Shown here piece by piece: positions 12,856 through 13,931 of a stretch of DNA of 64,000 nt (positions within the stretch are counted from its first letter, which is position 1; every line of letters starts with the position of its first letter). The position numbers were made by a program, and so were the translations under genes. Source of the stretch: Shigella phage Sf13; sequence record MF158040. One strand, written 5' to 3'. Under the pieces are notes generated by a model, which was not told the origin of the DNA, searched no databases, and saw only the letters and a program-made list of their open reading frames with translations.

Positions 12856-12934
12856 TGGTACTCCATATCGGATTCGAACCGATACATAACACAGATTTTA
12901 AATCTGGCCTCTCTGCCAATTGGAGTAATGGAGC
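12856..12934 (-). tRNA. tRNA-Leu (anticodon UAA), atypical class I-like architecture
   Basis: Good T-arm and acceptor stem, A73 discriminator; anticodon loop UUUAAAA; no long variable arm; 79 nt. Confidence 0.5.
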
Positions 12935-12936
12935 GT

Positions 12937-13012
12937 TGGCGGGGGATGATGGAATTGAACCATCTTCTTCGATTTCAAAGACCGAGGTTTTAACCTTGTA
13001 AACTAATCCCCT
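12937..13012 (-). tRNA. tRNA-Gln (anticodon UUG)
   Basis: D-arm GTTT/AAAC, anticodon stem TCGGT/ATCGA with loop CUUUGAA, T-arm GATGG/CCATC. Confidence 0.65.
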
Positions 13013-13020
13013 ATTAAATT

Positions 13021-13097
13021 TGGTGCAGAATAGAGGATTCGAACCCCTAACTAACAACTTCGTAGGTTGCTGCTCTGTCCATTTGAACTAATTCTGC
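13021..13097 (-). tRNA. tRNA-Arg (anticodon ACG)
   Basis: Perfect acceptor stem; T-arm agagg/attcgaa/cccct; anticodon loop read as ACG. Confidence 0.7.
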
Positions 13098-13259
13098 AAT
13101 ATCCTTTTGAGATTCCTGTCTAGCTCTCTTCTTATCTCTTCTGAGAAAGCGTTTACGATGGTCTGTACGCCATTTGTAATAATCTTCTTCACCATCATGT
13201 GCTGCACAGCAGCCACAACTTGCAATTTCAACTTTACCATGTCTACCATAAGGCTTCAT
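13047..13259 (-). CDS. hypothetical small basic Cys-rich protein (70 aa) overlapping 5' half of tRNA-Arg
   Basis: ORF track; ATG with AGGAG RBS 7 nt upstream; last ~17 codons overlap the tRNA-Arg gene. Confidence 0.35.
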   Translation of the reverse strand: MKPYGRHGKVEIASCGCCAAHDGEEDYYKWRTDHRKRFLRRDKKRARQESQKDIAELVQMDRAATYEVVS

Positions 13260-13275
13260 AGGAATCTCCTAAAAT

Positions 13276-13353
13276 TGGTGTTCCAAGACGGATTCGAACC
13301 GTCACTAATACAAGGTTTGAGCTTGCATCCTCTGCCAATTGGGATACTGGAAC
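13276..13353 (-). tRNA. tRNA-Leu (anticodon CAA), atypical class I-like architecture
   Basis: Perfect T-arm gacgg/attcgaa/ccgtc; acceptor 7 bp with G-U; A73; anticodon loop CUCAAAC; 6-nt variable region. Confidence 0.5.
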
Positions 13354-13354
13354 T

Positions 13355-13429
13355 TGGTACTCGCTGAAGGACTTGAACCTTCTTCACCAACTTGTAAGGA
13401 TGGGGCTTTACCATATAAACTAAGCGAGC
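13355..13429 (-). tRNA. tRNA-Val (anticodon UAC)
   Basis: T-arm gaagg/acttgaa/ccttc; acceptor pairing; anticodon loop read as UAC. Confidence 0.7.
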
Positions 13430-13430
13430 T

Positions 13431-13524
13431 TTGAAGAGGTCTGAAGCTGTGCCGCTAACTCAACTCCGTGGAATTTGTTACGGTCTTCAGTTGACTCAAG
13501 CGGTCTTTCACTTGACCTCAAAAT
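13431..13524 (-). ncRNA. candidate structured RNA or degenerate tRNA in tRNA array spacer
   Basis: About 95 nt with nested inverted repeats (gaggtc/gacctc, ctgaag/cttcag, ccgt/acgg, ccgct/agcgg), no T-loop motif, no convincing ORF; strand assumed from neighbours. Confidence 0.25.
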
Positions 13525-13601
13525 TGGTGCTGCTCACAGGACTCGAACCTGCATCTCCATCCTTACAAGGGATGTGCAATAGCCAATTATACGAAAGCAG
13601 C
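13525..13601 (-). tRNA. tRNA-Thr (anticodon UGU)
   Basis: T-arm acagg/actcgaa/cctgc; anticodon stem catcc/ggatg with loop giving UGU. Confidence 0.7.
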
Positions 13602-13607
13602 ATTATT

Positions 13608-13682
13608 TGGAGCATCCAGAGGGAATCGAACCCTCAACCTCAGTTTGGAAGACTGTAATTTTCCCATTTAAACTATGGATGC
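13608..13682 (-). tRNA. tRNA-Gly (anticodon UCC)
   Basis: Perfect acceptor stem; T-arm gaggg/aatcgaa/ccctc; anticodon UCC. Confidence 0.7.
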
Positions 13683-13688
13683 ACTAAT

Positions 13689-13764
13689 TGGTGGAGAAGC
13701 AGGGAATTGAACCCTGTACTTAAGTTTGCAAAACTTATGTTTTAACCATGTAAACTACATCCCC
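13689..13764 (-). tRNA. tRNA-Ala (anticodon UGC)
   Basis: T-arm caggg/aattgaa/ccctg; anticodon stem taagt/actta; G3-U70 pair in acceptor stem as expected for tRNA-Ala. Confidence 0.7.
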
Positions 13765-13770
13765 ATTGTT

Positions 13771-13846
13771 TGGTACAGGTGGAGGGAATTGAACCCATCG
13801 TCTTACTGATTAAGAGTCAGCCGCATAACCATTTTGCTACACCTGC
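13771..13846 (-). tRNA. tRNA-Lys (anticodon CUU)
   Basis: Acceptor pairing with G-U; anticodon stem-loop giving CUU; T-stem only partly paired. Confidence 0.55.
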
Positions 13847-13853
13847 ATTAATT

Positions 13854-13931
13854 TGGTAGGAGACAAGGGATTCGAACCCTCAAACACCAACTTCTAAGGA
13901 TGGTAGGTTTACCAATTACCGTCAATCTCCC
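13854..13931 (-). tRNA. tRNA-Leu (anticodon UAG), atypical class I-like architecture
   Basis: T-arm aaggg/attcgaa/ccctc; A73; anticodon loop CUUAGAA; short variable region. Confidence 0.5.

What the first reader, a model, noticed from the sequence alone, without database searches (positions are those of the whole stretch)
12856..13931. Three tRNA-Leu genes without the long variable arm
The loci with anticodons UAA (12856-12934), CAA (13276-13353) and UAG (13854-13931) fold with short 5-7 nt variable regions and have an A73 discriminator. Bacterial tRNA-Leu is normally class II with a long variable arm, whereas the Ser and Tyr genes in this same array do have long arms. Either these are unusual class I-like Leu tRNAs or my anticodon assignment is wrong.
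Basis: seen in the sequence. Interest (0 to 1): 0.5.

Follow-up and report, generated by a model that had tools for sequence, protein, structure and literature searches.

The report
Phage leucine tRNAs lacking long arm
This Felix O1-like phage of Shigella/E. coli carries three real leucine tRNA genes that lack the long extra arm textbooks give to all bacterial leucine tRNAs; the same short form recurs in many unrelated phages and in Actinobacteria, so it is an under-reported known kind, not a one-off.

Summary
ARAGORN, Rfam and the tRNAscan-SE annotation of a 99%-identical GenBank phage (Shigella phage Sf15, Mooglevirus) all call tRNA-Leu(UAA), (CAA) and (UAG) at the stated coordinates. Their variable regions are 4-7 nt, each has A73 and an encoded CCA. 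Ser and Tyr tRNAs in the same array keep long arms.

They are type I (short-variable-loop) tRNA-Leu. UAA and CAA have the same D-arm layout as E. coli leuZ. All three carry the sequence-level E. coli LeuRS determinants: A73, A14, A15/U48, G18G19 and A20a. The arm itself is dispensable for that enzyme.

They are not unique. The same type occurs in:
- Felix O1-like, Erwinia, T5-like, Vibrio and Lactobacillus phages;
- 15 of 120 IMG/VR loci;
- many Actinomycetota, mostly as the only tRNA in its 8-kb locus.

Thirty-four phage examples covary strongly (97% of cells paired, 19 of 20 pairs changed on both sides).

Type I tRNA-Leu was already described in Streptomyces coelicolor in 2019, so this is a new member of a known kind. 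I found no paper describing it in phages.

The open point is charging: E. coli LeuRS failed to charge the Streptomyces type I tRNA, which has C48, not U48. Charging of the phage tRNAs is inferred, not shown.

The parts
12856..12934 (-). tRNA-Leu(UAA), type I, 76 nt plus encoded CCA. G1.U72 wobble, 3-bp D stem (CUC/GAG), 11-nt D loop CAAUUGGCAGA, anticodon loop UUUAAAA, A73.
   Evidence: ARAGORN; Rfam 46.9 bits; annotated tRNA-Leu TAA in Sf15; 100% identical in Sf14, Mordin and 3HA14, and at least 95% identical in about 250 records.
12898..12900 (-). Anticodon UAA of the first tRNA-Leu (tta on the + strand).
   Evidence: Sequence read directly; ARAGORN places the anticodon at position 35.
12884..12890 (-). 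Variable region GUUAUGU (7 nt, ends in U48). It sits where E. coli leuZ has a 15-nt stem-loop.
   Evidence: ARAGORN bracket strings for the window gene and for leuZ.
13276..13353 (-). tRNA-Leu(CAA), type I, 75 nt plus CCA. 3-bp D stem (UCC/GGA), the same 11-nt D loop as the UAA gene, A73.
   Evidence: ARAGORN; Rfam 44.0 bits; identical in Felix O1; the phiEa21-4 orthologue differs in acceptor, anticodon and T stems by compensatory changes.
13317..13319 (-). Anticodon CAA (ttg on the + strand).
   Evidence: Sequence read directly; ARAGORN.
13304..13309 (-). Variable region (A)UUAGU, 5-6 nt, ends in U48.
   Evidence: ARAGORN.
13854..13931 (-). tRNA-Leu(UAG), type I, 75 nt plus CCA. The least regular of the three: a 3-nt connector (UGA) before a 3-bp D stem (GGU/ACC with a C.U mismatch at 10-25), a 9-nt D loop AAUUGGUAA, a U.U mismatch in the anticodon stem, A37, A73.
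   Evidence: ARAGORN; Rfam 40.0 bits with a shifted 5' end; MFE fold is not a cloverleaf, z = -0.78; Felix O1 has a fully compensated anticodon stem, and T5-like pork29 has a compensated acceptor stem.
13894..13896 (-). Anticodon UAG (cta on the + strand).
   Evidence: Sequence read directly; ARAGORN places the anticodon at position 36.
13882..13886 (-). Variable region UGUUU (4-5 nt, ends in U48).
   Evidence: ARAGORN.
11656..16347 (-). Array of 26 tRNA genes (25 called by ARAGORN plus Tyr) in which the three Leu genes sit. The tRNAs listed for the near-identical Sf15 array mostly end in an encoded CCA, and spacers are often only 2-8 nt.
11738..11830 (-). tRNA-Ser(GCU) with a 21-nt variable arm. 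Internal control showing that long arms are kept where the synthetase needs them.
   Evidence: ARAGORN.
14182..14271 (-). tRNA-Ser(UGA) with a 19-nt variable arm.
   Evidence: ARAGORN.
15703..15790 (-). tRNA-Tyr(GUA) with a long variable arm (3-bp stem) and a U.U mismatch in the T stem.
   Evidence: Alignment with Sf15 and Felix O1; ARAGORN at -ps90.

Best explanation
These are three functional, phage-encoded type I (short-variable-loop) leucine tRNAs.

Inferred steps:
- They are transcribed as part of the 26-gene array and processed by host enzymes; the CCA is encoded.
- They are charged with leucine by the host's bacterial-type LeuRS. That enzyme reads the discriminator A73 and the D-loop/T-loop corner (U8-A14, the A15-U48 Levitt pair, G18G19, A20a). 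It reads neither the anticodon nor the variable arm.
- They then decode UUA/UUG (UAA), UUG (CAA) and CUA/CUG, possibly also CUU (UAG). The 39%-GC phage uses these codons far more than E. coli does.
- The long arm could be lost in Leu, and only in Leu, because bacterial LeuRS does not need it. SerRS, and to a degree TyrRS, do need theirs.

Shown here: the genes, their anticodons, the short loops, the presence of every sequence-level LeuRS determinant, purifying selection on the cloverleaf, and the phage codon bias.

Not shown: transcription, processing, leucylation by E. coli/Shigella LeuRS, and use on the ribosome.
For: (1) Gene calls and anticodons come from three methods.

(2) For UAA and CAA the D-arm layout equals that of E. 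coli leuZ tRNA-Leu(UAA): a 2-nt connector, a 3-bp stem, an 11-nt loop N-AAU(C/U)GG(U/C)AGA, and one nucleotide at position 26. The UAA gene also shares leuZ's anticodon loop UUUAAAA and its G1.U72 wobble. The only architectural difference is 7 nt in place of the 15-nt arm, and both end in U48.

(3) In an alignment of 34 distinct phage type I tRNA-Leu from at least five unrelated phage groups, U8, A14, A15, G18, G19, A20a, U48 and A73 are invariant. This is the E. coli LeuRS identity set listed by Giege and Eriani 2023 (PMC9976931). The same review states that the long arm is not crucial and that arm-less E. coli tRNA-Leu variants remain active.

(4) Covariation is strong. 97.2% of cells are paired, against 37-46% when the 3' partners are slid. 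19 of 20 pairs change on both sides. 0 of 500 shuffles reach the observed score. Orthologues in Felix O1, phiEa21-4 and pork29 differ by whole-stem compensatory changes.

(5) Arm loss is specific to Leu. In loci holding a type I Leu, Ser variable regions are 16-21 nt and Tyr 10-22 nt.

(6) Leu codon use in 40 window ORFs is UUA 22%, UUG 16%, CUU 28%, CUC 5%, CUA 8% and CUG 21%. From established knowledge, E. coli uses CUG for about half of its Leu codons.

(7) A single bacterial LeuRS does charge a natural type I tRNA-Leu in Streptomyces coelicolor (PMC6614811).
Against: - Purified E. coli LeuRS did not charge the S. coelicolor type I tRNA-Leu(CAA) in vitro. The authors describe EcLeuRS as charging only type II, and say its leucine-specific domain favours tRNAs with a large variable loop (PMC6614811). 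That tRNA has C48, not U48. This may explain the failure, but the link is my inference.
- There are no expression, charging or knockout data for any Felix O1-like phage tRNA in the literature I could search.
- The UAG gene in this lineage has a weak D stem, an extra connector nucleotide and a U.U mismatch in the anticodon stem. Its MFE fold is not a cloverleaf.
- Codon compensation is only partial. CUU is the commonest Leu codon, and there is no GAG-anticodon tRNA.
Confidence: 0.75

Rival explanations
1. The tRNAs are leucine tRNAs, but the loss of the arm is an adaptive counter-defence, not a tolerated simplification. Without the class II arm they would escape host toxins or nucleases, or the phage's own host-shutoff factors, that recognise Leu/Ser-type tRNAs through the long arm. 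Phage translation would then continue when host tRNA-Leu is disabled.
For: - Phage tRNAs are proposed to be selected for insensitivity to host tRNA-targeting enzymes (van den Berg et al. 2023, PMC10264068).
[quoted passage not shown] So the arm can serve as a targeting handle.
- Type I status is nearly all-or-none per phage: 10 loci are all type I, 21 all type II and 4 mixed, permutation p < 1e-4.
- It recurs in phages of Proteobacteria and Firmicutes whose hosts, at least E. coli, have only type II tRNA-Leu.
Against: - No known defence system targets the tRNA-Leu arm in enterobacteria.
- The all-or-none pattern is also explained by within-genome duplication. In Vibrio phage 1.081.O the UAG and CAA genes are near-identical outside the anticodon arm.
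- The same tRNA type is usually the only tRNA in its 8-kb locus in many free-living Actinomycetota, where no phage-evasion logic applies.
- The sample is biased by how the loci were picked.
Confidence: 0.12
2. The genes make stable tRNA-like RNAs that host LeuRS does not charge with leucine. They would be mischarged, or serve another role such as a decoy, a regulator or a primer.
For: - EcLeuRS could not charge a natural type I tRNA-Leu (PMC6614811).
- The UAG copy is structurally weak.
- T5 annotation lists several stable tRNA-like RNAs of unknown function within its tRNA region, so non-decoding RNAs do occur in such arrays.
Against: - Every E. coli LeuRS determinant is invariant across 34 genes, as are U33, A35 and a 7-nt anticodon loop. 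Such constraint is hard to explain without charging and decoding.
- Anticodons are confined to the Leu box (UAA, CAA, UAG, CAG, GAG, AAG) in all type I genes found.
- No other synthetase's determinant set fits. There is no G3.U70, no G-1 and no long arm, and the anticodons are foreign to the anticodon-reading enzymes (established identity rules, PMC9976931).
Confidence: 0.08
3. The calls are artefacts: decaying pseudogenes, or tRNAs with a wrongly assigned anticodon or a hidden long arm.
For: - Rfam places the 5' end of the UAG gene one base away from ARAGORN's and implies U73.
- Some GenBank records label an orthologue 'tRNA-OTHER'.
Against: - Three callers agree on the genes and anticodons.
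- At 75-76 nt there is physically no room for an arm.
- About 250 records are at least 95% identical in the UAA gene.
- Compensatory changes occur across genera.
Confidence: 0.02

Closest known systems
Type I tRNA-Leu(CAA) of Streptomyces coelicolor (Fan et al., NAR 2019, PMC6614811)
   Same: A bacterial-system tRNA-Leu with a 5-nt variable loop. It coexists with a bacterial-type LeuRS, and A14-U8 matters for its charging. Actinomycete type I genes share the D arm GCC-CAAUUGGCAGA-GGC with the window's UAA and CAA genes.
   Different: - It is a host chromosomal gene, and only one of five isoacceptors is type I. Here all three phage Leu genes are type I, and the host has none.
- The Streptomyces tRNA has C48; the phage tRNAs have U48.
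- ScoLeuRS does not use A73 and has a special leucine-specific domain. The enterobacterial host enzyme is the one reported not to charge the Streptomyces tRNA.
E. coli tRNA-Leu(UAA), leuZ (type II)
   Same: Same anticodon and anticodon loop, G1.U72, A73, 3-bp D stem, 11-nt D loop with A14, A15, G18G19 and A20a in the same register, U48 and encoded CCA.
   Different: - leuZ has a 15-nt variable arm with a 5-bp stem; the phage gene has 7 unpaired nucleotides.
- D-stem strand polarity is inverted (GUG/CAC against CUC/GAG).
- Position 13 is G in leuZ and C in the phage gene. C12-C13 marks 29 of 41 viral and 111 of 144 genomic type I genes, and 0 of 141 type II genes.
Engineered arm-deleted E. coli tRNA-Leu (Larkin et al. 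2002; SELEX of Asahara et al. 1998; as summarised in PMC9976931)
   Same: These show that E. coli LeuRS can charge tRNA-Leu lacking the variable arm, provided A73 and the D/T-loop corner are intact. The phage genes have this same design.
   Different: Those are laboratory constructs with reduced activity. The phage genes are natural, conserved and apparently co-adapted (C13). I could not read the primary paper.
Animal mitochondrial tRNA-Leu(UUR)
   Same: A natural type I tRNA-Leu whose identity is set mainly by A73 and A14 (PMC9976931).
   Different: It is structurally floppy and AU-rich, and is charged by a dedicated mitochondrial LeuRS. It is not related in sequence. The phage tRNAs keep canonical D and T loops.
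Phage T5 tRNA-Leu(UAG)
   Same: A coliphage tRNA-Leu(UAG) in a large array. Its GenBank annotation records that an anticodon replacement turns it into an amber suppressor.
   Different: T5's gene is 85 nt with a reduced arm that is still about 12 nt long and has a 2-bp stem. T5-like pork29 carries, at the same Ala-Leu-Ser site, a 77-nt type I gene 84.6% identical to the window's UAG gene.

Membership tests
tRNA (Rfam RF00005) | Cloverleaf covariance-model score at or above the gathering score of 29 bits. | tested here: met
   46.9, 44.0 and 40.0 bits, full-length model 1-71.
tRNA (Rfam RF00005) | Four helices maintained by compensatory change among homologues. | tested here: met
   34 phage type I Leu genes: 97.2% of cells paired, 19 of 20 pairs with changes on both sides, slid controls 37-46%.
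tRNA-Leu (decoding) | Anticodon NAA or NAG centred in a 7-nt loop with U33. | tested here: met
   UAA, CAA and UAG from ARAGORN, the Rfam alignment and tRNAscan-SE. U33 and A35 are invariant in alignment A1.
tRNA-Leu (E. coli LeuRS identity set, PMC9976931) | Discriminator A73. | tested here: met
   A73 in all three, followed by CCA; invariant in 34 of 34 genes.
tRNA-Leu (E. coli LeuRS identity set, PMC9976931) | A14 (with U8), an A15-U48 Levitt pair, G18G19 and A20a in a Leu-type D loop. | tested here: met
   All of these nucleotides are present and invariant. The D-arm register of the UAA and CAA genes is identical to leuZ. The UAG gene has a 9-nt loop and an extra connector nucleotide. Actual formation of the tertiary pairs is not testable here.
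tRNA-Leu (function) | Aminoacylation with leucine by the host LeuRS. | not testable with these tools
   Requires a biochemical assay. The published EcLeuRS test on a different type I tRNA-Leu was negative (PMC6614811).
Class II / type II tRNA | Variable region longer than 10 nt that forms a stem-loop. | tested here: not met
   7, 5 and 4-5 unpaired nt. Ser genes in the same array have 19 and 21 nt, and Tyr about 15 nt.
Type I tRNA-Leu (as defined in PMC6614811) | Leu anticodon with a short variable loop of about 5 nt that includes nucleotide 48. | tested here: met
   Fan et al. found 5 nt including nt 48 to be the minimum for good charging. The UAG gene sits at that minimum.
Type I tRNA-Leu, 'C12-C13' sub-lineage shared by phages and Actinomycetota | D arm NYC-C-AAUUGGYAGA-GRN, with C at position 13. 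| tested here: met
   Met for the UAA gene (CUC-C...) and the CAA gene (UCC-C...). Not met for the UAG gene, whose D-stem 5' strand reads GGU and carries no C12-C13. The signature occurs in 29 of 41 viral and 111 of 144 genomic type I genes and in 0 of 141 type II genes. The D-loop core was fixed by the search pattern, but positions 12-13 were not.

The most novel reading that the evidence does not exclude
Type I tRNA-Leu is a distinct lineage, marked by C12-C13, that circulates among phages of Proteobacteria and Firmicutes and also occurs in Actinomycetota.

Its arm loss would be selected, not merely tolerated. The selective benefit would be escape from host or phage factors that recognise class II tRNAs by the arm.

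A corollary is that enterobacterial LeuRS charges natural type I tRNA-Leu efficiently when U48 is present. That would overturn the published generalisation that EcLeuRS charges only type II.
Probability: 0.12. Interest if true: 0.75.

Novelty: new member of a known kind. Interest (0 to 1): 0.42.

Why it matters
[quoted passage not shown] The one bacterial exception studied, in Streptomyces, was presented as rare and as needing a specialised LeuRS.

Here a whole family of well-known coliphages and Salmonella phages (Felix O1-like), some T5-like phages, and Vibrio and Lactobacillus phages encode only arm-less tRNA-Leu, in hosts that have none.

If the host LeuRS charges them, several things follow:
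- The variable arm is dispensable in nature across bacterial phyla, not only in engineered constructs.
- The U48/C48 difference becomes a testable specificity switch.
- These become compact natural scaffolds for engineering Leu-type suppressor tRNAs.

If the host LeuRS does not charge them, three conserved genes in hundreds of phages need a new function.

Either way, annotation pipelines that expect class II Leu may under-score them or label them 'tRNA-OTHER'.

Tried and rejected
- **Wrong anticodon or hidden arm.** Rejected, because three callers agree and the genes are only 75-76 nt.
- **Rfam's shifted register for the UAG gene (U73).** Rejected in favour of ARAGORN's register, because the pork29 and Felix O1 homologues keep a 7-bp acceptor stem plus A73-CCA through compensatory changes.
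- **MFE folding alone.** It recovers the acceptor, anticodon and T arms for UAA and CAA (z about -2.2) but not a cloverleaf for UAG (z = -0.78). I did not rely on it.
- **T5 as experimental proof that E. coli uses a type I tRNA-Leu.** T5's Leu(UAG) turned out to be 85 nt with a reduced but present arm, so its suppressor data do not transfer.
- **Copies in E. coli genomes or prophages.** No match in 5,426 genomes, even at E = 10.
- **Literature on phage type I tRNA-Leu.** Nine full-text searches found nothing on it. They did surface the Streptomyces paper, the identity review and the MenT3 paper. Larkin et al. 2002 is not held.
- **T4-induced cleavage of host tRNA-Leu.** I recalled this from memory as a possible link. 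I could not document it, so I do not use it as evidence.
- **Simple local deletion from a host-type tRNA-Leu.** Considered unlikely for the UAA and CAA genes because of the C12-C13 signature, which is absent from all 141 type II genes sampled.
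Full report
**What the window is.** Over 11500-16500 the window is 99.2% identical to Shigella phage Sf15 (Ounavirinae, Mooglevirus). It matches 300 Felix O1-like phage records of Escherichia, Salmonella, Shigella, Citrobacter and Erwinia. ARAGORN finds 25 tRNA genes on the minus strand between 11656 and 16347. Rfam RF00005 confirms 23 of them.

- ARAGORN calls tRNA-Leu(UAA) at 12856-12934, tRNA-Leu(CAA) at 13276-13353 and tRNA-Leu(UAG) at 13854-13931.
- Rfam scores are 46.9, 44.0 and 40.0 bits against a gathering score of 29.
- The depositors' tRNAscan-SE annotation of Sf15 gives the same isotypes and anticodons.
- ARAGORN structures show variable regions of 7, 5 and 4-5 nt, with A73 and then an encoded CCA.
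- The two Ser genes have 21- and 19-nt arms.
Default ARAGORN and Rfam at gathering score miss it, because a single G-to-T difference from Sf15 puts a U.U mismatch in the T stem.

**Anatomy.** I compared the UAA gene directly with E. coli K-12 leuZ tRNA-Leu(UAA), fetched and folded with the same tool.
- The two share G1.U72, a 2-nt connector, a 3-bp D stem, an 11-nt D loop (N-AAU[C/U]GG[U/C]AGA), the anticodon loop UUUAAAA, U48, A73 and CCA.
- The only architectural difference is that leuZ's 15-nt arm (5-bp stem) is replaced by 7 unpaired nucleotides.
- The CAA gene has the same D arm as the UAA gene.
- The UAG gene is less regular. It has a 3-nt connector, a 3-bp D stem with a C.U mismatch at 10-25, a 9-nt D loop and a U.U mismatch in the anticodon stem. 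Its MFE fold is not a cloverleaf.
- Rfam shifts the 5' end of the UAG gene by one base. Homologues support ARAGORN's register instead. Felix O1 has the same acceptor stem with a completely compensated anticodon stem (ucucg/cgaga against ccauc/guugg). T5-like pork29 has a compensated acceptor stem (gcgugau/gucacgc) with A73-CCA.

**These are not a quirk of one genome.**
- The UAA gene is at least 95% identical in about 250 phage records.
- All three genes are present in Felix O1.
- Erwinia phage phiEa21-4 (Kolesnikvirus) has type I CAA, UAA and AAG genes. Their acceptor, anticodon and T stems differ from the window's by compensatory changes, while the D arm is unchanged.
- Outside the family, Lactobacillus phage Bacchae (Herelleviridae) and Vibrio phage 1.081.O (Schizotequatrovirus) each have three tRNA-Leu genes annotated at 74-75 nt, beside Ser genes of 84-88 nt.
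- T5-like pork29 has two 77-nt Leu genes. T5 itself has an 85-nt Leu(UAG) with a reduced 2-bp arm.

**Frequency in viral contigs.** I scanned IMG/VR with a pattern that fixes only the Leu-type D loop, an NAR anticodon and the T loop, leaving the variable region free.
- The 120 loci gave a bimodal distribution of tRNA-Leu variable regions. 21 genes had 4-6 nt and 140 had 9-25 nt.
- Type I genes occurred in 15 loci, nearly all of them tRNA arrays.
- Ser and Tyr genes in the loci that hold a type I Leu have variable regions of 16-21 nt and 10-22 nt.
- Among viral loci with at least two Leu genes, 10 are all type I, 21 all type II and 4 mixed. This sample is biased by how the loci were chosen.

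**Bacteria have them too.**
- The same pattern restricted to a short variable region hit 120 or more loci in GTDB species genomes.
- ARAGORN identifies most of these hits as 72-74-nt tRNA-Leu(UAA), with some UAG, CAA and CAG.
- They come from Nocardia, Mycobacterium, Gordonia, Rhodococcus, Arthrobacter, Bifidobacterium and other Actinomycetota.
- 85 of the genes are the only tRNA in their 8-kb locus. This is consistent with chromosomal rather than prophage-array genes, though their context was not examined further.
- This fits a remark in the MenT3 paper that only tRNA-Leu-2, -3 and -5 of the five M. tuberculosis Leu tRNAs have a long loop (PMC11541572).
- It also fits Fan et al. 2019, who characterised a type I tRNA-Leu(CAA) in Streptomyces coelicolor (PMC6614811).

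**Selection and identity.**
- An alignment of 34 distinct phage type I tRNA-Leu (A1) has invariant U8, A14, A15, G18, G19, A20a, U33, A35, U48, the T-loop core and A73.
- On the type I cloverleaf, 97.2% of 680 cells are standard pairs, against 37-46% when the partners are slid. 19 of 20 pairs show changes on both sides, and none of 500 shuffles reaches the observed covariation.
- The invariant unpaired nucleotides match the E. coli LeuRS identity set in Giege and Eriani 2023 (PMC9976931): A73, A14, the A15-U48 Levitt pair, G18G19 and A20a.
- That review says neither the anticodon nor the long arm is crucial, and that arm-less variants stay active.
- A further signature separates the types. Positions 12-13 are CC in 29 of 41 viral and 111 of 144 genomic type I genes, and in 0 of 141 viral type II genes, which almost always have G13.
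- The window's UAA and CAA genes carry this signature; the UAG gene does not. Type I genes are therefore mostly a coherent sub-lineage or a co-adapted design, with some independent arm losses.

**Mechanism.** The best reading is that these are working leucine tRNAs charged by the host LeuRS.
- They would supplement UUA/UUG and CUA/CUG(/CUU) decoding for a 38.9%-GC genome.
- Leu codon use in the window's ORFs is UUA 22%, UUG 16%, CUU 28%, CUC 5%, CUA 8% and CUG 21%. From established knowledge, E. coli uses CUG for about half of its Leu codons.
- The arm can be lost in Leu alone because bacterial LeuRS does not depend on it, whereas SerRS does.

**The main caveat.**
- Fan et al. found that purified EcLeuRS did not charge the Streptomyces type I tRNA at all. 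They attribute type I charging to the ScoLeuRS leucine-specific domain.
- That tRNA has C48. All three window genes, and all 34 phage genes, have U48. EcLeuRS is reported to need A15-U48.
- This is a plausible reconciliation, but it is my inference and untested.

**Rivals.**
- An adaptive counter-defence reading holds that the arm is a handle for toxins or nucleases. The concept has support from PMC10264068 and from MenT3's use of the Ser arm. It has no direct evidence here, and the Actinomycetota genes that are the only tRNA in their locus argue against it being needed.
- A non-charged or other-function reading is hard to square with the invariant identity and anticodon-loop nucleotides.
- The pseudogene or mis-call reading is refuted.

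**Novelty.**
- The genes are already annotated as tRNA-Leu in hundreds of GenBank records, without comment.
- Type I tRNA-Leu is a known kind, described in animal mitochondria and in S. coelicolor.
- Nine full-text searches found no description of it in phages. A leading review still states that Leu keeps the long arm everywhere but animal mitochondria.
- I therefore file this as a new member of a known kind. It is of moderate interest, chiefly because it sets up a clean test of whether enterobacterial LeuRS charges natural type I tRNA-Leu.

Noticed in passing
window 15703-15790 (-): tRNA-Tyr(GUA) with a long arm is present but missed by ARAGORN at default settings and by Rfam at gathering score. 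One G-to-T difference from Sf15 creates a U.U mismatch in the T stem. The window has the Felix O1 base on the 5' side and the Sf15 base on the 3' side. Felix O1's copy is flagged as a pseudogene in GenBank.
   Followed up: yes
window 16513-17928 (-); L003 11318-12054: A 471-aa protein with DUF2828 and DUF7788 domains flanks the tRNA array. It is annotated 'RNA-binding protein' in Felix O1. A DUF2828 protein also flanks the tRNA array of the unrelated Vibrio phage 1.081.O. This may be a recurrent partner of phage tRNA arrays.
   Followed up: partly
window 13854-13931; L245 8997-9073; L244 11625-11709: The window's Leu(UAG) gene is 84.6% identical to a 77-nt tRNA-Leu in many T5-like phages. T5 itself has an unrelated 85-nt Leu(UAG) at the same Ala-Leu-Ser position, next to an HNH endonuclease gene. 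This suggests tRNA gene replacement or exchange between phage families.
   Followed up: partly
window 13047-13259 (-): A 70-aa Cys-rich ORF (gp103 in Sf15) lies between tRNA-Leu(CAA) and tRNA-Arg(ACG) and overlaps the 5' part of the Arg gene (13047-13097). It has no Pfam match.
   Followed up: partly
L247 24827-24904; L077 12284-12358: Erwinia phage phiEa21-4 and one IMG/VR contig carry a type I tRNA-Leu with anticodon AAG. An A at position 34 is unusual in bacteria outside tRNA-Arg(ACG).
   Followed up: no
L124-L243 (GTDB genome loci): Type I tRNA-Leu(UAA), with the sequence gcccccauagcccaauuggcagaggc... and 72-74 nt long, is conserved in many Actinomycetota genera, usually as the only tRNA in its 8-kb locus. 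Other type I Leu genes lie in dense arrays of 10-35 tRNAs per 8 kb in bacterial genomes.
   Followed up: partly
window 12583-12658 and 16268-16347 (-): Other array members look non-canonical. ARAGORN gives tRNA-Phe(GAA) a 6-nt T loop and mismatched stems, and its Rfam score is 39.2 bits. tRNA-Pro(UGG) is 80 nt with its anticodon at position 38.
   Followed up: no
window 11832-12629 (-): A 265-aa DUF7217 protein is encoded inside the tRNA array. The Sf15 note calls it a predicted receptor-binding protein.
   Followed up: partly
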